From NCBI GenBank assembly GCA_964565125.1, contig CAZMCX010000024.1, forward strand, positions 1 through 10,124: a DNA stretch of 10,124 nucleotides. The letters are read 5' to 3'. Below are positions 1-10,124 of this stretch, piece by piece. Positions within the stretch are counted from its first letter, which is position 1, and each line of letters opens with the position of its first letter. The notes under the pieces were generated by a model. The model was not told where the DNA came from. It saw only the letters and a list, made by a program, of their open reading frames with translations, and did not search any database. The translations under genes and the position numbers were made by a program. The stretch comes from an uncultured archaeon. Lineage in GTDB: Archaea > Iainarchaeota > Iainarchaeia > Iainarchaeales > 0-14-0-20-30-16.

Positions 1-119
1 TAAGAACGCTATCGCGTTAACTCGGGGTCAAATTACCCCGTTCAAATTGTATGGCCTAAAGCCATAAGAACGCTATCGCGTTAACTCGGGGTCAAATTAC
101 CCCGTTCAAATTGTATGGC
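1..119. repeat. Perfect tandem direct repeat with a 64-bp period: identical 55-bp cores at 1-55 and 65-119, probably cut by the window edge
   Basis: Base-by-base comparison shows 1-55 equals 65-119. The first mismatch is c56 versus g120. Each core holds two stem-loops: AACGC-tatc-GCGTT, and CGGGGT-caaatt-ACCCCG (23-40 and 87-104). GCCATA (61-66) can pair with TATGGC at 114-119, closing a three-way fold. It can alternatively pair with TATGGC at 50-55, giving a 5-nt loop. Confidence 0.9.
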
Positions 120-123
120 GTCA

Positions 124-312
124 TAAGCTAATTTTGTTTTTCACAAAATTGCTTAGGGCCCAGAAACTTTTTGCAAGCAAAAAGCTTTCTTGACAAAGCC
201 ATAAGAACGCTATCGCGTTACTTGGGAACAAACTTTCCCCAAAAAGCTAATTTGCCTAACAGCAAATTACTTTAGGGGGCTAAGAAAATTTCCAAATCTG
301 GAAATTTATCTT
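124..312. other. Run of long, short-loop stem-loops in non-coding DNA (candidate structured RNA, MITE-like modules or terminators)
   Basis: Hand-folded stems: (a) 124-155, TAAGCTAATTTTGT / ttttc / ACAAAATTGCTTA, 13 bp with 1 bulge. (b) 161-192, CAGAAACTTTTTGC / aa / GCAAAAAGCTTTCTTG, 8-bp perfect core plus a 6-bp extension. (c) 248-269, TAATTTGC / ctaaca / GCAAATTA, 8 bp perfect and extendable to 237-278. (d) 282-312, AAGAAAATTTCCA / aatc / TGGAAATTTATCTT, 13 bp with 1 bulge. All pairs are Watson-Crick, so the strand cannot be assigned. Confidence 0.7.
198..240. repeat. Diverged third copy of the 64-bp unit
   Basis: GCCATAAGAACGCTATCGCGTTA at 198-220 is identical to 61-83. The second hairpin is replaced by GGGAA-caaact-TTCCC (224-239), which keeps the stem through paired substitutions. 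Confidence 0.8.
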
Positions 313-325
313 TTCCCAAAGCATT

Positions 326-1096
326 TTACTGGAATAAATCTGACAGGTAGTTTATTAATGCGTGGAATGGATTCAAAACACTATTTATTACTGGGTACGA
401 AAAGTAAAGGAATTTATTTTCTTCTTCGCTATCCGCAGTTATTGTAAGTTGTTTTCCAAGTTTGAAAAGATCGTCTCCCTTATAGTCCTCACAAACAAAT
501 TCAATTTCATAATCCCCTATATTGTTTGCTACAAACTGGGCGGAATACTCTTTTGTTTCCCTAGGACCCAAAGATATTTTTACTGATTTAACCCAAGATT
601 CTGCTAAATTTGATTTTAATTCACAATCTGCTTTTGCGTCACTTAAGTTTTCCACAATATATTTTATTTCTTTACTATCATGTAATTTCAAGTTTGAGCC
701 TACGAAAAATAACTGGCTTTTTACAAGGTTTTCTGATATTGTAATAGAAGTAGTTACTGTTTTTTCCCCGTGATTTGTGTTAAAAATAAATAAAACATCA
801 TATACCCCCAGTTTTGCATTTTCAAGGGCTGTTATGTAGACATCGGCGAAGGGGTCTCCGTAGCTTATTTTTCCTAATTCAAATGTAGAATCATTGTATT
901 TTACGGTAATTGACTCTATTGATTCGCCATTATATTGTTTTAAAAAAGAGATGTCCAGAACTTGGCCGGGCATTATACTTGCAAATGAATCTATCTTTCC
1001 CGAGTCAATATCTTTATCTAAAGGCTTTACAAAACCTATAGAAAACGATATACCAACTAACAAAATTAAAAAACAAAAGTACATCTTTCTTAACAT
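326..1096 (-). CDS. Secreted or membrane-anchored surface protein with two beta-rich (Ig-like/CARDB-like) segments; family uncertain
   Basis: 256-aa ORF. The ATG at 1096 is preceded by AAGGTGA (reverse complement of 1101-1107) with 4-nt spacing. The N-terminus MLRKMYFCFLILLVGISFSIGF looks like a signal peptide or TM anchor. Two segments end in G-x-Y-[DE]-[VI]-x-F (LGVYDVLFIF, IGDYEIEFVC), as in beta-sandwich surface domains. Confidence 0.7.
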   Translation of the reverse strand: MLRKMYFCFLILLVGISFSIGFVKPLDKDIDSGKIDSFASIMPGQVLDISFLKQYNGESIESITVKYNDSTFELGKISYGDPFADVYITALENAKLGVYDVLFIFNTNHGEKTVTTSITISENLVKSQLFFVGSNLKLHDSKEIKYIVENLSDAKADCELKSNLAESWVKSVKISLGPRETKEYSAQFVANNIGDYEIEFVCEDYKGDDLFKLGKQLTITADSEEENKFLYFSYPVINSVLNPFHALINYLSDLFQ

Positions 1097-1169
1097 TCTT
1101 TCACCTTTTATTAATATTTATAAAAAAAGCACAAAAATAGTTATATATCTTTGCTATCTTATGGTAAAC

Positions 1170-1754
1170 ATGGCAGATTATCGATTTGAAATGTGTAAAA
1201 AGAGCAATATGGCCAAGTTTGAGGTTGCTTTAGATAAAGGGCTTGTAGATAAAATGCTAATACCATTTCTAAAAAAAATAAACAAAAGGCCCAATATTTA
1301 TTCTTCTAGTTGTTGTGCAGGAAGAATTATGATTATCGGCTTAGATACCGAAGAAAGCAAAAAACCAAATTTATTTGTGCTTAAAGAACACCGAAAAGTA
1401 AAATTTTCTGAGATAAAAAACGCTTTAAAAACCGACAAGTTTCCAGAGCTGTGGCTAAAGGAAGAACCCTTTATTTTTCACTTTGGGACAAAGGACTTAG
1501 AAACTGCAAAAAAATTTTTAGAAATAAAAACAAAAGCAGGTATTAGAAGGGGCGGGATATTCCATATAAAAGACAACAAATACCTGATTGAACTTATTGG
1601 TTCACAAACTCTTGCGGTGCCAATAAAGATCGGAAAAAAGGTGTTATTTTCTGAGGAACAAATAAAAATAGTCTTAGAAAAAGCAAATAAAAAATTAGAA
1701 CGGAACTATAAACAGCTTAAAGAATTTTGTAAAGAATTATTAAAAATAGAATGA
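1170..1754 (+). CDS. taw3: tRNA wyosine-derivative methyltransferase, Taw3/TYW3 family
   Basis: The product contains YSSSCCAGRI, a variant of the SSCSGRI signature of the TYW3 family, and its length (~195 aa) fits archaeal Taw3. The frame is open from 894, but that extension overlaps the divergent gene and promoter. Candidate ATGs are at 1161 and 1170. TTATATAT (1141-1148) lies about 25 nt upstream of 1170, which is leaderless-type spacing. The start could be 1161. Confidence 0.75.
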   Translation: MADYRFEMCKKSNMAKFEVALDKGLVDKMLIPFLKKINKRPNIYSSSCCAGRIMIIGLDTEESKKPNLFVLKEHRKVKFSEIKNALKTDKFPELWLKEEPFIFHFGTKDLETAKKFLEIKTKAGIRRGGIFHIKDNKYLIELIGSQTLAVPIKIGKKVLFSEEQIKIVLEKANKKLERNYKQLKEFCKELLKIE

Positions 1755-1758
1755 TTGA

Positions 1759-1950
1759 TTAGTCTTTTTGTTTTCTTTTCTTTTGTCTTGCCATGTAGCC
1801 GGCCATCTTATTTACATTTGTTTTTGTTATTGGCAGGCCCAATTTGTTTATCGCTTTTTTATTAGTATCAAAATCCGTGCCTATCTCTTTCATAGATTCC
1901 ATTATTGTATTTGCTTTTGATTTTAATGGCTTTAACATTGATTTGCCCAT
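1759..1950 (-). CDS. rps17e: 30S ribosomal protein S17e
   Basis: The 63-aa product MGK...TDFDTNKKAINK...NKMAGYMARQKKRK matches the archaeal S17e pattern (MG+..., DF-x-x-NKK, AGY near the C-terminus) and its typical length. Confidence 0.8.
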   Translation of the reverse strand: MGKSMLKPLKSKANTIMESMKEIGTDFDTNKKAINKLGLPITKTNVNKMAGYMARQKKRKQKD

Positions 1951-2116
1951 AATATCACATCCTATATATTACTGGGCCTAAAACAATTTTGTTTTTCTAC
2001 AAAATTGCTTTTTTGCCCATAATATCACATCCTATATATTACTGGGCCTAAAACAATTTTGTTTTTCTACAAAATTGCTTTTTTGCCCATAATATCGCAT
2101 CCTAACCTTATTACAG
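1942..2116. repeat. Perfect 70-bp tandem repeat (1942-2011 equals 2012-2081) plus a diverged partial third copy (2082 to ~2116)
   Basis: Aligned by eye. Copies 1 and 2 are identical. Copy 3 matches through 2096, has A>G at 2097, and then diverges in the TATATATT segment. Each unit carries the reverse complement of ATGGGCAAA (the S17e start), a TATA-like AATATATA, and a stem-loop (9-bp core at 1984-2007 and 2054-2077, extendable GGGC...GCCC). Confidence 0.9.
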
Positions 2117-2122
2117 TAAATA

Positions 2123-2314
2123 TTATTTCTCCCTTGTTCCATCTGCTTTGTACTTAATTATTCTTAATGGTATTTTGTTTTCCTCAAACTCTTTTGATGC
2201 TACTTCGTAAGGGGTCTCTTTTTTATTCACGCTTACTTGTGGCGGAGCATTATCTGCTATTTGTAATGACCTTGTAGCCAATAGCCTCGTTTTTTCAAAT
2301 TTTGAATATGCCAA
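2123..2314 (-). CDS. rpoK: DNA-directed RNA polymerase subunit Rpo6 (RpoK / omega-like)
   Basis: The 63-aa product ...KFEKTRLLATRSLQIADNAPP... matches the conserved Rpo6 core (T+FE+AR..G.RALQI..GAP). There is no in-frame ATG. The only plausible start is TTG at 2314, with AGGTGAT 3 nt upstream, and an in-frame TAA lies just beyond. Confidence 0.75.
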   Translation of the reverse strand: MAYSKFEKTRLLATRSLQIADNAPPQVSVNKKETPYEVASKEFEENKIPLRIIKYKADGTREK

Positions 2315-2711: not shown

Positions 2712-3743
2712 TTACAACGAATAAAATAAGTTTAGTATTATTCCGCCAAGCCCATCAAGCATTTTTCCCGCATCATTCTTAGAATCCATTAAATGTATCT
2801 TTTTACCCTGACTTGAAAGAGCAACAAAATGTGGCTTAAGGATTATATAATTTTCATTAAAATAACTTGTAGAAACTACTAATTCTTCAACTGCAGCCAT
2901 TTGATTTTCTAAAACATTTTGGACTTCTTTGGGGCCATAAATAATATTTCTTTTGCCTTGGCTTATTTTGTATAAAGAGGTATTTATTTTTTCAATGTCT
3001 TTAGTTATTTTAAACTCATTAAGTGTTTTTGACAAAGAATTGCTTTTTATCAACTCTAATATTCCGCTTATCCCCACACCATTCAAGTTAACCATAATTG
3101 TTTTTATTTTTACATTTTTTTCTTTTAGATAAACTCCAAGTTTGTCTTTATCAAAGCCAGGGCCTGCCAAAATCAATAGTTCTGGTTTTGTGTTTGATAT
3201 GCTCTCAAAAATGTCTTTAAAATAGCTTTTATCTTCTTCCACAACATATCTTTTTCCCTTGCTTTTTGAATTTATTTTTGCAATTATTTTGTAATTACCG
3301 TAATTAATCTCAGCAACTATTGCTACTTCGTCGTCTAAAACTACTGAAAGTATTTTTGGATTTACAGCATATTTTTTTGCAGATTCTATTAATTCTAATT
3401 CATAGCCCAACAACACCTTATACAAAGTTACTGTGTCGCCGAAACCGATATCTAAGGTATGAAAAGAGCCGATATCAACATATTCTGCAGGGTGCCCTTC
3501 AATGATAACCCCAGTAAATTTAAGTCGGTCTGTTTGAGTATCAAATTCCTTTTTTTCTATTTTTATTTTTACATTTACTGTTTTCTTCTCGCTGTCTTTA
3601 GAACCTTCAACTCTAAAACGCCGTGTAGTTTTCCCATAAATCAATTCATTTTCGTGCGTTATATTATTTAGAACCCAAAGGTCATCTAAATTTTCAGGGG
3701 TGATTATCACATTCTGTTCTTTTTTATGTATAGTATACTTCAT
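2712..3743 (-). CDS. pelA: Pelota (aPelota/Dom34), ribosome rescue factor
   Basis: 343 aa. The N-terminus ...ITPENLDDLWVLNNI...GKTTRRFRV matches the conserved Pelota motif (pE..DDLW.L.N.I ... T.R), and the size and eRF1-like domain layout fit. Confidence 0.85.
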   Translation of the reverse strand: MKYTIHKKEQNVIITPENLDDLWVLNNITHENELIYGKTTRRFRVEGSKDSEKKTVNVKIKIEKKEFDTQTDRLKFTGVIIEGHPAEYVDIGSFHTLDIGFGDTVTLYKVLLGYELELIESAKKYAVNPKILSVVLDDEVAIVAEINYGNYKIIAKINSKSKGKRYVVEEDKSYFKDIFESISNTKPELLILAGPGFDKDKLGVYLKEKNVKIKTIMVNLNGVGISGILELIKSNSLSKTLNEFKITKDIEKINTSLYKISQGKRNIIYGPKEVQNVLENQMAAVEELVVSTSYFNENYIILKPHFVALSSQGKKIHLMDSKNDAGKMLDGLGGIILNLFYSL

Positions 3744-3776: not shown

Positions 3777-3795
3777 ATCCTTGGTTGAAATAAAT

Positions 3796-5544
3796 ATGCA
3801 AAAGAAAAGAATTGCTATAATTGACTATAAAAAATGTAAAAAAGAGGAGTGTGGATTTGCCTGTTACAACATCTGTCCAGTTATAAAAATGAACAAAGAA
3901 GCAATAGTCTATAATGAACTGGAAAAAAAGGTTCAAATTTCCGAAGAACTTTGTACTGGCTGCGGGATTTGCCCAAAGAAATGCCCTTTTGGAGCAATAA
4001 CAATAATTAATTTATCTTTAGATTTAAGTGAGCCCATACATCAATATGGAAAAAATCGTTTCAGATTATTTAGATTACCCACAATAAGGGCTGGTAATGC
4101 AGTTGGCTTAATTGGAAAAAACGGGATTGGAAAATCAACCATACTTAATATTTATTCAGGAGACATAATACCAAATCAAGGTAATTATGAAAAACCAGGT
4201 AATTACGAAGAAATAATAAATTATTTTAAAGGCAAAGAATTACAAGAAACGTTTATAAATTTAAAAAATGGGAAAACAAAAGTTTCGTACAAACCACAAA
4301 ACATAAAGGCCATAAAAGATAATTTCAAAGGCAAAGTAATAGACTTACTAAAAAAAGTTGATGAACGTAAAGAGCTTAACAAAATAATTGACCTATTAAA
4401 AATGGATAATATAATGAACAAAGAGATATCAACTCTTTCTGGTGGAGAACTCCAAAAAGTTGCAATAGCCGCAACAATTATAAAAAAGGCAAACCTTTAT
4501 TTTTATGATGAGCCATCGTCATTTTTAGACATAAAACAGAGATTTGTATTTGCAAAATTGATAGAAGATTATAAAGATACAAACTTAATTGTAGAGCACG
4601 ACTTGGCATTGGTTGACTACTTGTGTGATTATTTGCATATTTTATTTGGTAAAGCACACGCATATGGTGTTGTTTCTAATACAAAGACAACAAATACAGC
4701 AATAAATGAGTTTTTAGATGGTTTCATACCAGATGAAAACTTGAGATTCAGAGATTATGAAATAAACTTTTACTATAGGGGTGAGCAAGCAAAAAAAACT
4801 AATTTATTTTTTAATTATCCACAAATGTGTAAAACATTTAAAGACTTTAAACTTGATGTTGATGATGGATCTTTAAATGAAGGCGAAATTATTGGGATTG
4901 TCGGAGAAAACGGAATTGGAAAAACAACTTTTGTAAAACTACTTGCGGGCGTTGAAAAAGAGGATAATGAAATAAATGTTTTCAATAAACGAATGTCATA
5001 CAAACCACAAGATTTTGATGGTGAACATGTAAAAGTAAGGGAATTTTTAAAGGGCGTAAATCAAGAGATACTTATGTCTGAACTTTGGTTTAAGCTAAAA
5101 ATAAATGAGATTGAAGATTTATATTTGGATGAATTAAACATGGGGACTTTGCAAAAAATTATGATTGCAAAAACCCTTACAACTGACGCAGAAATTTATT
5201 TACTAGATGAGCCTTCTGCTTTTTTAGATGTTGAAGAAAGAATTAATATTGCAAAAATAATTCAATCTATTATTGCAAAAAGAAAAAAGGTCGCTTTTGT
5301 TGTTGATCACGATATACTTTTTGTTGATTTTGTTTCAGACAAAATAATTGTATTTGATGGAAAGCCCGGCATAGAGGGGTTTTGTACAAAACCAAAAGAT
5401 AAAAAAAGAGGTATGAACCAATTTTTAAAAATACTCGATGTAACTTACAGAAAAGATTTAAAGTCCGGAAGGCCGCGAGTAAATAAATTAAATTCTACGA
5501 AAGACAAAGAACAAAAAGCAGATGGTAATTACTATGTTTACTAG
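3796..5544 (+). CDS. ABCE1: ABCE1 (RNase L inhibitor homolog), ribosome-recycling ATPase
   Basis: The N-terminus has two ferredoxin-type cysteine clusters (CKKEECGFACYNICPV; CTGCGICPKKCPFGA). Two ABC cassettes follow: Walker A GLIGKNGIGKST and GIVGENGIGKTT, signature LSGGELQ, and Walker B YFYDEPS and YLLDEPS. The ATG at 3796 is preferred over the track's TTG at 3781. Confidence 0.9.
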   Translation: MQKKRIAIIDYKKCKKEECGFACYNICPVIKMNKEAIVYNELEKKVQISEELCTGCGICPKKCPFGAITIINLSLDLSEPIHQYGKNRFRLFRLPTIRAGNAVGLIGKNGIGKSTILNIYSGDIIPNQGNYEKPGNYEEIINYFKGKELQETFINLKNGKTKVSYKPQNIKAIKDNFKGKVIDLLKKVDERKELNKIIDLLKMDNIMNKEISTLSGGELQKVAIAATIIKKANLYFYDEPSSFLDIKQRFVFAKLIEDYKDTNLIVEHDLALVDYLCDYLHILFGKAHAYGVVSNTKTTNTAINEFLDGFIPDENLRFRDYEINFYYRGEQAKKTNLFFNYPQMCKTFKDFKLDVDDGSLNEGEIIGIVGENGIGKTTFVKLLAGVEKEDNEINVFNKRMSYKPQDFDGEHVKVREFLKGVNQEILMSELWFKLKINEIEDLYLDELNMGTLQKIMIAKTLTTDAEIYLLDEPSAFLDVEERINIAKIIQSIIAKRKKVAFVVDHDILFVDFVSDKIIVFDGKPGIEGFCTKPKDKKRGMNQFLKILDVTYRKDLKSGRPRVNKLNSTKDKEQKADGNYYVY

Positions 5545-5595: not shown

Positions 5596-6141
5596 ATGGC
5601 TACAGATATTATTAATCTAAATAGCATTCAAAAATATTTAGAAAATGTAGATTGTGCTGCTTATAAGCTTGTTTCTATTTGGTATAAAAACAAAGAAAAT
5701 ACTTCCGACGAATTTTTTACACAACACCTTGAATGTAAAATAACTGTTGTAAGGTCAATTTTAAATAAGTTACATTATTATGGAATAGTAAATTATGATA
5801 AAATAAAAAATGAAAATTCTGGCTGGTTTACATTTAAGTGGCATCTGGACTATAATAAACTTTCAAAACTTGTTTTTTTAAATAATCTGGATAAACTAGA
5901 AAAACTAAATGCAAAAGAAAAATATTATGGCGAATATCAAATGTTTGTTTGTAAAAACAGTTGCAACGACTTTCCTTTTGAAGTTGCTGCAGAATATAAT
6001 TTTAATTGTCCTATGTGTAATGAAACTTTAAAACATATTGATTATGTAGAAAAGCACAAGGAACTTCAAGCCCAGATTAAGATTATCGAAGAAGAAAATG
6101 TAATTTTGTCCTTATTTTTAAAGGAAAACAATAAAAAGTAA
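5596..6141 (+). CDS. tfe: Transcription factor E (TFE-alpha / TFIIE-alpha homolog)
   Basis: 181 aa. An N-terminal winged-helix-like segment (...ITVVRSILNKLHYYGIVNY...WFTFKW) is followed by a zinc-ribbon-like CKNSC...x18...CPMC, the layout of archaeal TFE. Confidence 0.7.
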   Translation: MATDIINLNSIQKYLENVDCAAYKLVSIWYKNKENTSDEFFTQHLECKITVVRSILNKLHYYGIVNYDKIKNENSGWFTFKWHLDYNKLSKLVFLNNLDKLEKLNAKEKYYGEYQMFVCKNSCNDFPFEVAAEYNFNCPMCNETLKHIDYVEKHKELQAQIKIIEEENVILSLFLKENNKK

Positions 6142-6164: not shown

Positions 6165-6240
6165 TAGCGGGGTAGGGCAGCCTGGAGTGCCCGCTGGGCT
6201 CATAACCCGGAGGTCGTTGGTTCAAATCCAACTCCCGCTA
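6165..6240 (+). tRNA. tRNA-iMet: tRNA-Met (anticodon CAT), initiator type; CCA not encoded
   Basis: Hand-folded cloverleaf: acceptor AGCGGGG/TCCCGCT, D arm GGGC-AGCCCTGGAGT-GCCC, anticodon arm CTGGG-CTCATAA-CCCGG, variable AGGTC, T arm GTTGG-TTCAAAT-CCAAC, discriminator A. The A1:U72 pair and the three G:C pairs closing the anticodon stem are hallmarks of archaeal initiator tRNA. An Ile2 (modified CAU) identity is less likely. Confidence 0.85.
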
Positions 6241-6280
6241 TCTTGTTCTAAGCTAACAAATTAACTATTGTTGTCAGAAG

Positions 6281-6315
6281 GTAATTATCGTAATTACGGT
6301 AATTACTGTAATTAC
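6281..6315. repeat. Iteron cluster 1: four head-to-tail GTAATTA[C/T] palindromic sites at an exact 9-bp period
   Basis: Sites start at 6281 (GTAATTAT), 6290, 6299 and 6308 (GTAATTAC). GTAATTAC equals its own reverse complement. Confidence 0.9.
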
Positions 6316-6547: not shown

Positions 6548-6646
6548 GTAATTACGGTAATTATTGTAGTTATAGGCGGTAATTACGGGTAATTACCGTA
6601 ATTATTATAAATACTAGTATGTAATTATTGTAATAAAGGTAATTAC
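6548..6646. repeat. Iteron cluster 2: nine GTAATTAC-type sites overlapping the putative promoter and 5' region of the 6659 gene
   Basis: Site starts: 6548, 6557, 6566 (degenerate GTAGTTAT), 6579, 6589, 6598, 6621, 6630 (degenerate GTAATAAA) and 6639. Spacing within sub-blocks is 9-10 bp. TTATAAATA (~6604-6612) and the perfect palindrome ATACTAGTAT (6611-6620) lie between sub-blocks. Confidence 0.9.
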
Positions 6647-9808: not shown

Positions 9809-9945
9809 AAAATCACCCGTTGGTTGTAAGGGGACACCACACTAAATGATAGTTGATGTTATAAACAGCGTGCCTTGTTTTCTTGGTTCTCATACAAAAA
9901 TAACATAATAATATGTTTAAATAAGTTGTGTTGTAATGGAATATT

Positions 9946-10124
9946 ATGCGAGCAACAGTCAGAACCGAAGTCGTTGGAAATGAAGACTTGGAAAAAACAA
10001 TTATATTGAGTAATCAAGCCTGTTAAGAATGCATTGACATTGGAATGAAAGCCAAGACTTTCAACAAAACCAGACTGCACCAACTCACCTATGCTATTAT
10101 CAGAAAGGCTCACCCCAAACTCAA
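9946..10124 (+). pseudogene. tnpB: TnpB-like (IS200/IS605 OrfB family) N-terminal fragment with an in-frame TAA; runs off the window edge
   Basis: My own translation is MRATVRTEVVGNEDLEKTIILSNQAC*ECIDIGMKAKTFNKTRLHQLTYAIIRKAHPKL. It resembles the N-terminus of one TnpB subgroup (TV+.+L....e....L..T...fN.AcN.+s......+tFnK..Lh.L.Y..+R...p.L.sQ). The TAA is at 10024-10026, where homologs usually have Asn. This segment is ~40% GC by hand count, against ~27% in a sampled host line. Confidence 0.45.

What the first reader, a model, noticed from the sequence alone, without database searches (positions are those of the whole stretch)
1..325. Hairpin-dense 325-bp non-coding block with a perfect 64-bp-period tandem duplication
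Seen in sequence:
- At least eight stem-loops are packed end to end between the window edge and the stop of the 326-1096 gene (coordinates are in the features).
- Two 55-bp cores (1-55 and 65-119) are 100% identical, and a third diverged copy sits at 198-240.
- Each 64-bp unit can fold as a closed three-way structure: GCCATA / hairpin AACGC-tatc-GCGTT / hairpin CGGGGT-caaatt-ACCCCG / TATGGC.
- The same GCCATA can instead pair with the preceding unit's TATGGC across a 5-nt loop. The two folds are mutually exclusive.
- Modules are punctuated by a recurring TAAG (1, 65, 124, 202, 281).

Inference: this is far more structure than one terminator needs. Candidates are a structured ncRNA or array of small RNAs, DNA hairpins recognised by an HUH/IS200-IS605-type enzyme (a TnpB-like fragment is in the window), or MITE-like palindromic elements. 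The perfect identity of the copies argues for very recent duplication or gene conversion. I do not recognise it as any known RNA family.
Basis: partly seen in the sequence, partly recalled or inferred. Interest (0 to 1): 0.7.

Follow-up and report, generated by a model that had tools for sequence, protein, structure and literature searches.

The report
Strain-variable hairpin repeat pile-up, archaeal spacer
The 325-bp block is a recent, strain-variable pile-up of small palindromic insertion modules plus a 64-bp minisatellite, wedged between two genes of a tiny-genome (DPANN, Iainarchaeota-like) archaeon. It is not a conserved RNA gene, although the modules have an unusual build that copies the flanking target sequence.

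Summary
Positions 1-55 and 65-119 are identical, a diverged third copy lies at 198-240, and 11 stem-loops fill 325 bp (fold z = -7.8 and -6.8).

The block lies between the stop codon of a 256-aa gene and the conserved promoter-like stretch of elp3. Related species with the same gene order have only 32-67 bp there and none of this sequence.

Within the species the block is polymorphic. Five independent assemblies carry 1, 2, >=2, >=3 or >=3 copies of the 64-bp unit. Two ~78-bp two-hairpin inserts (X1, X2) are present or absent.

The inserts belong to a small family: (T/C)AAG, a hairpin, AGG, then a variable box. Other members sit at other spacers in either orientation. One is in the window at 1942-2104.

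Several members sit just after a start codon, with the ribosome-binding site and ATG duplicated and an inverted copy of it in between.

Rfam, tRNA, CRISPR, virus and IS200/IS605-end comparisons were all negative, and the block holds no TATA-like hexamer.

Best reading: MITE/REP/BOX-like selfish repeat DNA that expands by unequal recombination. How it moves is unknown, and I could not measure its genome-wide copy number.

The parts
1..64 (.). 64-bp unit, copy a (the array continues beyond the window edge). It holds hairpins B (5-18), D (23-40) and C (50-66).
   Evidence: The same unit occurs in L001, L002, L004 and L013.
65..119 (.). 64-bp unit, copy b, 100% identical to 1-55. It ends with the 5' arm (TATGGC, 114-119) of hairpin C.
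120..197 (+). Insert X1, a two-hairpin module sitting in the loop of hairpin C. It holds M4 (TAAGC 124-128, stem 130-137/143-150, GCTTA 151-155), the box GGGCCC (156-161), and M3 (162-190, stem 167-174/177-184).
   Evidence: X1 is absent from L001, L002, L004 and L013, where TATGGC-tttag-GCCATA is intact. The M4 core is 25/26 identical to the hairpin at 1985-2010. Covariance model R1 scores 49.5 bits on the + strand and 17.4 on the - strand.
198..240 (.). Diverged unit copy c. It holds the 3' arm of C (GCCATA, 198-203), hairpin B (206-219) and hairpin D' (GGGAA/TTCCC, 224-239).
   Evidence: D' keeps its pairing through two double changes relative to D (GGGGT/ACCCC versus GGGAA/TTCCC). L013 has a D'/D hybrid.
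233..320 (+). Insert X2 with its flanking direct repeats. It reads: CTTTCCCCAAA (233-243), M2 core (248-269), middle box CTTTAGGGGGCTAAGA (~270-285), M1 core (286-307), CTTTTCCCAAA (310-320).
   Evidence: The empty site in L002 and L001 has a single CTTTCCAAAAGC. The filled site is also in L013. R1 scores 51.8 bits on the + strand. X2 aligns with X1 module for module.
326..1096 (-). Upstream flanking gene: a 256-aa hypothetical protein with no Pfam match. Its stop codon is at 326-328.
1942..2104 (-). Related module E1 as a 70-bp tandem repeat (2.3 copies) between Rpb6 and S17e. Each unit reads: SD+ATGGGCAAA, AAAGC-hairpin-TTTTAGG, CCCAGTAATAT (an inverted copy of the start region), then SD+ATG again.
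   Evidence: Other strains have 1.3 copies. Relatives have none.

Best explanation
**What it is.** The block is non-coding, lineage-specific repeat DNA that has inflated a normally tiny spacer between a 256-aa gene and elp3 (both on the - strand). The host is an AT-rich, Iainarchaeota-like DPANN archaeon. The block has two components.

- **A 64-bp unit.** It consists of three short GC-rich hairpins (B, C, D) and behaves as a minisatellite. The simplest allele already has the unit flanked by two D-like hairpins. Unequal recombination or replication slippage between these repeats expands and contracts the array. Copy numbers of 1 to >=3 are seen, and one allele carries a D'/D hybrid hairpin.
- **Two paralogous ~78-bp two-hairpin inserts.** X1 comprises M4+M3 and X2 comprises M2+M1. 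They belong to a small dispersed family built as (T/C)AAG, an AT-rich hairpin, AGG, then a variable box. The sequence outside each hairpin core pairs with the flanking target sequence. At least X2 is bracketed by direct repeats of the target, giving the layout: target, core, inverted target, core, target.

**How it works.** I read the modules as MITE/REP/BOX-like selfish elements that insert into spacers in either orientation. The 64-bp array is a local by-product. The block is probably transcribed passively as the 3' tail of the upstream mRNA and needs no function of its own.

**Shown:**
- The anatomy of the block.
- Its absence in relatives.
- Presence/absence and copy-number polymorphism between strains.
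- Related cores at other loci, in both orientations.

**Inferred:**
- Mobility as such.
- Recombination as the way the array expands.
- The lack of function.
For: **The block is new in this lineage**
- Syntenic relatives have 32-67 bp between the two genes and no similar sequence.
- The promoter-like stretch GCATATA + ~27 nt + ATG of elp3 is conserved. The block sits directly 5' of it.

**It varies between strains (alignment A4)**
- L002 has 1 unit and no inserts.
- L013 has X2 plus 2 units.
- L001 has >=2 units.
- L004 has >=3 units, with one SNP and one indel between units.
- The window has X2, a diverged unit split by X1, and >=2 units.

**Cores are shared between loci**
- M4 matches the hairpin at 1985-2010 at 25/26 positions.
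- Model R1, built from M4, M2 and E1, also hits L005 19336-19456 (overlapping hits, read as three tandem modules between convergent genes). It also hits L010/L011 upstream of the topoisomerase I (TopoI) gene.
- In L013 two copies of another core are 96% identical over 46 nt on opposite strands.

**Orientation is not fixed**
- M4 and M2 are antisense to the flanking genes, while E1 is in sense.

**Empty and filled sites exist**
- They are seen for X2, for E1 and for three start-codon sites.

**Hairpins persist through sequence turnover**
- X1 and X2 share only about 55% of columns, yet both keep two perfect 8-9-bp stems.

**There is no sign of an independent gene**
- The block has no TATA-like hexamer on either strand, against 9.3 per kb in the window.
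- Rfam gives nothing above threshold.
- The tRNA scan finds only tRNA-Met at 6165-6242, far from the block.
- The longest stop-free stretch is 47 codons, and the 64-bp period is not a multiple of 3.

**Precedent**
- MITEs are reported at high density in some DPANN genomes (PMC11602168).
Against: - Dispersal rests on only ~23 kb of this species' genome plus relatives. The genome-wide copy number is unknown, because the species is not in the GTDB representative set.
- No transposase or other mobilising enzyme was found.
- The 64-bp unit itself was found only at this one locus.
- X1 and the extra 70-bp copy are seen only in the window's assembly.
- Compensatory changes and perfect stems could reflect selection on RNA or DNA structure rather than selfish spread.
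- Most modules fold slightly better on the sense (-) strand.
- An inverted copy of the target inside the insert is not what ordinary MITE transposition produces.
Confidence: 0.6

Rival explanations
1. The block is a functional cis-acting RNA structure. The hairpins would act on the mRNA as a terminator, insulator or 3'-end stabiliser between the 256-aa gene and elp3. At start-codon sites they would act as a translational switch. This is compatible with a mobile origin.
For: - The block lies exactly between a stop codon and the next promoter-like stretch.
- On the sense strand, M2 is followed by TTTTT.
- Most modules are 1.6-3.6 kcal/mol more stable on the sense strand.
- Hairpins are maintained by compensatory changes.
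- At five start-codon sites the segment after the hairpin is complementary to both the upstream pseudo-start and the true start. This is a start / anti-start / start layout with a short uORF.
- One allele differs by G.U versus G-C.
Against: - Relatives manage with spacers of 32-67 bp and no hairpins.
- The one-unit allele lacks most of the block.
- The consensus hairpin-plus-T-run scan finds no terminator.
- Archaeal termination is generally by oligo-T without hairpins (my own knowledge).
- M4 and M2 are in the opposite orientation to the S17e copy.
- Copy number varies freely between strains.
Confidence: 0.2
2. The modules are REP-like substrates of a hairpin-recognising single-strand DNA enzyme. 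This could be a RAYT-like Y1/HUH transposase or similar, encoded elsewhere in the genome. (T/C)AAG would play the role of the REP GTAG tag.
For: - The modules are short imperfect palindromes with a recurring tetranucleotide at the 5' foot of several different hairpins.
- They cluster in composite arrays, as BIMEs do.
- The species carries IS200/IS605 DNA.
- An inverted copy of the target next to a hairpin core would fit fold-back priming from a hairpin 3' end (inference).
Against: - The tag is not GTAG or CGTC (PMC3733652).
- TAAG enrichment is weak.
- No intact Y1 transposase is in the ~23 kb seen, and the tnpA next to the tnpB fragment is a 26-codon stub.
- There is no similarity between the IS ends and the modules.
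- Direct repeats flank the inserts.
Confidence: 0.1
3. The block is an array of small RNA genes or one structured ncRNA of a new family.
For: - Folding is very strong on both strands.
- The units are modular and tandem.
Against: - No homologue exists in any syntenic relative.
- Rfam gives no hit apart from a sub-threshold mir-208 match at 152-197 (24.4 bits against a gathering score of 56.4).
- The block has no TATA-like hexamer.
- Unit number and module content differ between strains.
Confidence: 0.05
4. The tandem copies or inserts are an assembly artefact.
For: - The window starts inside the repeat.
- Most contigs of this species end at or near the array.
- X1 and the third 70-bp copy are unique to this assembly.
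Against: - Units in tandem are seen in L001, L004 and L013, from different samples and at least two sources (ENA assemblies and a JGI metagenome). L004 has unit-specific variants.
- X2 is confirmed by L013.
- X1 is 78 bp of unique sequence whose flanks differ from the 1942-2104 locus, so it is not a chimera of the two loci.
Confidence: 0.05

Closest known systems
REP/BIME elements and REPtrons of Proteobacteria (GTAG- or CGTC-tagged palindromes; PMC3733652)
   Same: - They are short imperfect palindromes with a conserved tetranucleotide at one foot.
- They are clustered head-to-tail or head-to-head in spacers after genes.
- They are species-specific and variable between strains.
- Their proposed roles are termination, mRNA stability, or none.
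   Different: - The tag here is (T/C)AAG, not GTAG or CGTC.
- The stems are AT-rich.
- The host is an archaeon.
- No RAYT gene was seen.
- Copy number is unknown.
- The inserts carry direct and inverted copies of the target.
Pneumococcal BOX elements (boxA-boxB(n)-boxC; PMC3049150 listed; module details from my own knowledge)
   Same: They are modular intergenic elements that fold into hairpins, with an internal module present in a variable number of tandem copies between loci and strains.
   Different: - There is no sequence relation.
- The host is a bacterium.
- BOX elements are dispersed in more than 100 copies, whereas the 64-bp unit here is known from one locus only.
MITE carrying an internal minisatellite in Porphyromonas gingivalis (PMC4596501, title and abstract only) and MITEs reported in DPANN genomes (PMC11602168)
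   Same: - They are small non-autonomous elements in spacers.
- They show strain-variable tandem repeat number.
- They are present in reduced archaeal genomes.
   Different: - No terminal inverted repeats match a resident IS.
- The flanking repeats are long and variable (5-24 nt).
- An inverted target copy lies between the two hairpin cores.
IS200/IS605 ends and their miniature derivatives (PATEs); family properties from my own knowledge
   Same: - They have subterminal hairpins.
- An IS200/IS605 remnant lies in the same window.
   Different: - There is no similarity to that IS.
- IS200/IS605 inserts 3' of a fixed tetra- or pentanucleotide without duplicating the target, whereas direct repeats are present here.
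Tandem inversion duplications formed by snap-back or template switching at quasi-palindromes (Salmonella lac system; my own knowledge)
   Same: Both have a direct-inverted-direct arrangement of a segment with palindromic junctions.
   Different: - Here the triplicated segment is only 12-24 nt.
- The junction hairpin cores are shared between loci and absent from empty sites, so the event is not purely local.

Membership tests
Minisatellite / VNTR | Head-to-tail copies of a unit of >=10 bp | tested here: met
   The period is 64 bp, and 1-55 equals 65-119. The same units are in tandem in L001, L004 and L013.
Minisatellite / VNTR | Copy number differs between individuals or strains | tested here: met
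   Copy numbers are 1 (L002), 2 (L013), >=2 (L001), >=3 (L004) and >=3 (window).
MITE | Presence/absence polymorphism with recognisable empty sites | tested here: met
   X1 and X2 are absent in L002 and L001, and X2 is present in L013. Empty sites for the related E modules exist in relatives.
MITE | Several dispersed copies in one genome | tested here: inconclusive
   Within ~23 kb of the species: M4 matches the E1 core at 25/26, M2/M1 are paralogous to M4/M3, and E3 matches E5 at 96% over 46 nt. The whole genome is not available.
MITE | Terminal inverted repeats shared with an autonomous IS, and a fixed-length target-site duplication | tested here: not met
   There is no similarity to the only IS seen. 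The flanking repeats vary from 5 to 24 nt and come with an inverted target copy.
REP / REPtron | Palindromes of 20-40 nt tagged by GTAG or CGTC at one end | tested here: not met
   Palindromes are present, but the recurring tag is TAAG/CAAG. The definition is from PMC3733652.
REP / REPtron | A RAYT (Y1 transposase) gene flanked by the repeats | not testable with these tools
   Only ~23 kb of the species is held. The one tnpA present is a 26-codon stub.
IS200/IS605 ends (PATE) | Hairpins homologous to the left and right ends of a resident IS200/IS605 | tested here: not met
   blastn-short of 1-325 against L001, which holds the IS remnant, gives no hit in that IS. The right-end-like hairpin CCCCGCATTGAAAATGCGG is unrelated.
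Rfam RNA families, including ribozymes and riboswitches | Score at or above the family's gathering threshold | tested here: not met
   In the block there is only mir-208, at 24.4 bits against a threshold of 56.4.
CRISPR array | Identical repeats separated by unique spacers of similar length | tested here: not met
   The whole 64-bp period is repeated identically, so there are no unique spacers.
Intrinsic-terminator-like hairpin | GC-rich stem followed by a T run | tested here: not met
   There are 0 sites in 1-2400, against 1.6 expected. Only M2 (read on the - strand) is followed by T5.
Conserved structured ncRNA (new family) | Homologous sequence and structure in related genomes, with covariation | tested here: not met
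   It is absent at the syntenic spacer in L005, L007, L010, L014, L027 and L028.

The most novel reading that the evidence does not exclude
The modules would be a previously undescribed kind of small archaeal mobile element: a hairpin core (~25-50 nt, (T/C)AAG...AGG) that enters compact spacers.

- **Insertion signature.** Insertion creates a direct-inverted-direct triplication of 12-24 nt of the target, for instance by fold-back priming from a hairpin 3' end of a single-stranded intermediate.
- **Effect at gene starts.** At gene starts it lands a few nucleotides after the ATG and rebuilds a ribosome-binding site plus start codon. It leaves a short uORF, and an anti-start segment that can pair with either start. 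Each insertion would therefore install a ready-made translational switch.
- **Place of the block.** The 1-325 block would be a graveyard or nest of such elements.
Probability: 0.25. Interest if true: 0.75.

Novelty: new variant of a known kind. Interest (0 to 1): 0.45.

Why it matters
- **Compact genomes.** DPANN genomes are among the most compact known. Relatives have 11-67 bp in these two spacers (11-39 bp between Rpb6 and S17e, 32-67 bp before elp3). A lineage whose spacers are inflated 3- to 10-fold by hairpin modules shows that small selfish DNA can still be active in such genomes.
- **Assembly.** These modules also help explain why assemblies of this species fragment at these points.
- **Strain typing.** The 64-bp and 70-bp arrays are ready-made strain markers.
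- **Mechanism.** If the target-copying architecture and the start-codon insertions are the signature of a specific mechanism, this would be a new way of moving DNA and of rewiring translation initiation in archaea.

Tried and rejected
**Candidate identities ruled out**
- **Rfam at E <= 1 over the whole window.** It found only tRNA-Met, a sub-threshold mir-208 hit on hairpin M3 and a tmRNA fragment elsewhere. I rejected the two weak hits as chance.
- **tRNA or tRNA-like origin of the unit.** No match in the block.
- **Hammerhead or other three-way-junction ribozyme.** The junction strands lack the conserved cores (read from sequence), and Rfam is negative.
- **K-turn reading of the conserved AA/AG internal loop.** There is no tandem G.A/A.G, so I rejected it from the sequence.
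- **CRISPR.** There are no unique spacers.
- **Coding.** The 64-bp period is not a multiple of three, and the longest open stretch is 47 codons.
- **IS200/IS605 link.** There is no similarity to the remnant at the other end of the window.

**Searches that found nothing useful**
- **Virus or plasmid origin.** Four exact-pattern scans of viral contigs found nothing.
- **GTDB genomes.** Two scans gave 0 hits and 1 chance hit in a Chitinispirillaceae MAG. The species is therefore not represented, and genome-wide copy counting was impossible.
- **Third protein search.** I set too strict an E-value, and it returned only the query. I had meant it to extend the species' sequence beyond L013.

**Models that under-performed**
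- **Strict regex for the module grammar.** It recovered only E3 and E4 in two strains, so the grammar is looser than I first wrote it.
- **Model R1 on more distant relatives (L027-L030).** It found nothing credible.
Full report
**Setting**

The window is 30% G+C and archaeal. It holds these genes:
- Pelota at 2712-3743 (-)
- ABCE1 at 3781-5544 (+)
- TFE-alpha at 5596-6141 (+)
- an initiator-type tRNA-Met at 6165-6242
- TYW3 at 1161-1754 (+)
- S17e at 1759-1950 (-)
- Rpb6 at 2123-2314 (-)
- two PRC-barrel proteins
- an NFACT-like protein

The nearest named relative of the flanking 256-aa protein (86% identity) is from a MAG called Candidatus Iainarchaeum sp., GCA_028710695.1. The organism is therefore a DPANN archaeon of that group.

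The finding lies downstream of the stop codon (326-328) of the 256-aa gene, which is on the - strand.

- Positions 1-55 and 65-119 are identical, and a diverged copy follows at about 198-256.
- I count eleven stem-loops.
  - B (AACGC-tatc-GCGTT) occurs three times.
  - D (CGGGGT-caaatt-ACCCCG) occurs twice, plus the diverged D'.
  - C (TATGGC-ctaaa-GCCATA) occurs once.
  - The four longer AT-rich hairpins are M4, M3, M2 and M1.
- Seven perfect stems of >=6 bp compare with 0.5 in shuffles.
- Folding z-scores are -7.8 on the + strand and -6.8 on the - strand.
- TAAG recurs five times, which is only weakly more than expected (P about 0.01-0.03).

**What lies beyond the window edge**

Looking up the 256-aa protein, TYW3, NFACT and Elp3 in public assemblies recovered the same locus from other samples.
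- The next gene is elp3 (radical SAM / tRNA modification), on the same strand.
- The array ends directly at a stretch GAAAGGCATATATCAC-N23-ATG.
- This stretch is conserved in relatives as AAAAAGCATATAATC-N23-ATG. It looks like the elp3 TATA region.
- The block therefore occupies the zone between one gene's stop codon and the next gene's promoter.

**The block is not conserved**

| Relative (locus) | Spacer between the 256-aa gene (or its counterpart) and elp3 |
|---|---|
| L005 | 57 bp |
| L007 | 40 bp |
| L010 | 33 bp |
| L027 | 32 bp |
| L028 | 67 bp |

- L005, L007 and L010 have 86%, 71% and 50% protein identity to the 256-aa protein. L027 and L028 were reached through Elp3 homologues.
- These five syntenic relatives contain nothing similar to the block.
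- This rules out an old, conserved RNA gene or regulatory element.

**The block is polymorphic within the species**

Alignment A4 shows five alleles, read on the sense (-) strand from the stop codon to the promoter:

| Source | Allele |
|---|---|
| L002 | D'-B-C-D: one unit, 123-bp spacer |
| L001 | D'-B-C-D-B-C..., where the contig ends |
| L013 | M1-M2-D''-B-C-D-B-C-D |
| L004 | ...C-D-B-C*-D-B-C-D, with one SNP and a 1-nt indel between units |
| Window | M1-M2-D'-B-C(5' arm)-[M3-M4]-C(3' arm)-D-B-C-D-B-..., where the window ends |

- D'' in L013 (GGGGAAAGTTTGTCCCCG) is a hybrid of D' and D. Unequal exchange between those two repeats would give exactly this.
- The simplest allele already has the B-C segment bracketed by two D-like hairpins, a layout prone to expansion.
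- Most contigs of this species stop at or next to the array. Repeats plus strain mixtures would be expected to cause such breaks.

**The two inserts**

X1 spans 120-197 and holds M4 and M3. It sits inside the loop of hairpin C.

X2 spans about 241-320 and holds M2 and M1. It sits next to the stop codon.
- The two inserts align module for module.
  - M4 and M2 share AAGCTAATTT...AAATT.CTT(T)AGGG.
  - M3 and M1 share AGAAA...TTTCTT/ATCTT...CAAAGC.
- The upper stems differ by paired changes, so all four keep perfect 8-9-bp stems.
- X2 is flanked by CTTTCCCCAAA (233-243) and CTTTTCCCAAA (310-320). The empty site in L002 has one copy, CTTTCCAAAAGC.
- The segment between the two cores, CTTTAGGGGGCTAAGA, matches the reverse complement of that target at 12 of 16 positions by my hand alignment.
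  - It pairs leftwards to close M2 and rightwards to close M1.
  - The layout is therefore: target, core, inverted target, core, target.
- X1 is less clean. Only GYCATAAG recurs at its two sides.

**The modules have relatives elsewhere**

- The M4 core matches the hairpin of the 70-bp tandem repeat at 1942-2104 at 25 of 26 positions. That repeat lies between Rpb6 and S17e.
- A covariance model built from M4, M2 and that hairpin scores as follows:

| Module | Strand | Score (bits) |
|---|---|---|
| M2 | + | 51.8 |
| M4 | + | 49.5 |
| S17e copy | - | 46.2 |

- The two block modules are therefore antisense to their flanking genes, and the S17e copy is in sense.
- The model also hits the related species L005 at 19336-19456 with overlapping hits. 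I read these as three tandem modules, each AAG-hairpin-GGGSYC, between two convergent genes.
- It also hits L010/L011 just upstream of the TopoI gene.
- More distant relatives have none.

**Start-codon sites**

This part lies outside the assigned coordinates, apart from 1942-2104. Comparing filled and empty sites gives five cases:
- S17e in the window
- TopoI in L010/L011
- TopoI, AsnC and a 243-aa gene in L013

In each case the insert begins 2-6 nt after the native ATG, for example ATGAAC|AAG..., ATGGC|AAG..., ATGTTC|AAG... and ATGGGCAAA|AAAGC....

The insert then reads, in order:
1. A hairpin core.
2. AGG.
3. A box complementary to the local start region, listed below.
4. A Shine-Dalgarno-like GGTG/GGATG.
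5. The ATG and first codons again, continuing into the gene.

| Site | Start region / complementary box |
|---|---|
| E3 | ATGAAC / GTTCAT |
| E4 | GATGGC / GTCATC, and GCCATC in another strain |
| E5 | TATTTTATGTTC / GAACACAAAATA |
| E2 | TTTATGA / TCATAAA |
| E1 | ATTATGGGC / GCCCAgTAAT |

- The duplicated stretch is 5-24 nt.
- The box can pair with either copy of the start.
- The upstream copy opens a short uORF of 7 to about 27 codons (read from the sequences).
- Two L013 copies share a 46-nt core at 96% identity on opposite strands, so the cores spread recently.
- Relatives have the plain start site.
- I cannot tell which of three processes produced the complementarity:
  - It was made at insertion, for example by fold-back priming or template switching.
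  - It arose afterwards, when the imperfect palindrome was corrected against the target.
  - It reflects the element's choice of target.
- The direct repeats give an easy route to precise loss. That would explain why the TopoI site is filled in two non-sister species and empty in three others.

**What the block is not**

- **Rfam family.** No match reaches threshold.
- **tRNA-like sequence.** The scan finds only the tRNA-Met far from the block.
- **CRISPR array.** The whole 64-bp period repeats identically, with no unique spacers.
- **Coding sequence.** The longest stop-free stretch is 47 codons, and the period is not a multiple of 3.
- **Independent promoter.** There is no TTTAWA, TATAWA or ATATAT hexamer on either strand, against 9.3 TTTAWA per kb in the window.
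- **Bacterial-type terminator.** The consensus scan finds none.
- **Viral contigs.** No match.
- **IS200/IS605 remnant.**
  - It consists of a tnpA stub at 9816-9893 (-) and a tnpB 5' end at 10045-10124 (+).
  - It has no similarity to the block and a higher G+C.
  - It is itself polymorphic: absent in L018, and with a full-length TnpB in L017.

**Verdict**

- The block is a young, unstable cluster of small palindromic repeat modules plus a locus-specific 64-bp minisatellite, in a genome that otherwise tolerates almost no spacer DNA.
- It works like REP/BIME, BOX or MITE-with-minisatellite DNA in bacteria. However, it fails the defining tests for REP (the tag), for classical MITEs (TIR and fixed TSD) and for IS200/IS605 derivatives.
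- I rate it a new variant of a known kind.
- The unresolved and more interesting point is the target-copying architecture, together with its association with start codons.

**Limits**

- Only about 23 kb of this species could be examined.
- The species is absent from the GTDB representative set.
- No expression data exist.
- X1 and the extra 70-bp copy rest on this assembly alone.

Noticed in passing
window 1942-2104 (- strand sense), between Rpb6 and S17e: A 70-bp tandem repeat is present in 2.3 copies here and 1.3 copies in four other assemblies. It is absent in relatives, where this spacer is 11-39 bp. The 23-24-nt direct repeat is the S17e ribosome-binding site plus ATGGGCAAA. The hairpin between the repeats is homologous to M4/M2, and the upstream pseudo-start opens a 7-codon uORF (MGKKAIL*).
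   Followed up: yes
L013 2250-2356, 2838-2930 and 5874-5975(-); L004 2220-2277 and 2804-2858; L010 11644-11735 (= L011 12723-12814): These are hairpin modules inserted 2-3 nt after the start codons of the AsnC, TopoI and 243-aa genes. Each has a duplicated SD+ATG and, in between, an anti-start box complementary to both starts. The closest relatives have plain start sites. Two L013 copies share a 46-nt core at 96% identity.
   Followed up: partly
L005 19336-19456: Three tandem AAG-hairpin-GGGSYC modules fill the 153-bp spacer between two convergent genes (a 91-aa gene and mutL) in the related Iainarchaeum MAG. The family is therefore not confined to the window's species.
   Followed up: partly
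window 6281-6315 and 6548-6646 (also 3291, 4199, 5525, 6466, 7360): The 8-bp palindrome GTAATTAC, often in 9-bp tandem steps as GGTAATTACC, occurs 12 times against 0.23 expected. It is clustered on both sides of a ~230-bp stretch in the spacer next to tRNA-Met. The same clusters sit in the same spacer in relatives down to ~50% protein identity, so this is a conserved cis element (protein-binding sites or origin-like).
   Followed up: partly
window 9816-9893 (-) and 10045-10124 (+); L001 1-1400; L017 483-1544; L018: This is an IS200/IS605 remnant: a 26-codon tnpA stub (MRTKKTRHAVYNINYHLVWCPLTTNG) and the start of a tnpB gene, with higher G+C than the host. It is absent in one strain (L018), full length (353 aa) in another (L017), and truncated (264 aa) in L001.
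   Followed up: partly
window 6165-6242 (+): A tRNA-Met (CAT) with an A1-U72 end pair and 63% G+C sits in a 30% G+C genome. It is probably the initiator tRNA.
   Followed up: no
L010 14526-14882: A 357-bp spacer rich in G+C and apparent stems lies upstream of an AAA_14/DUF4143 gene. It may be an unannotated RNA gene. It was not examined.
   Followed up: no
window 152-197 (-): A sub-threshold Rfam hit to the animal microRNA precursor mir-208 (24.4 bits, E = 0.058) falls on hairpin M3. It is a chance match to an AT-rich hairpin.
   Followed up: yes
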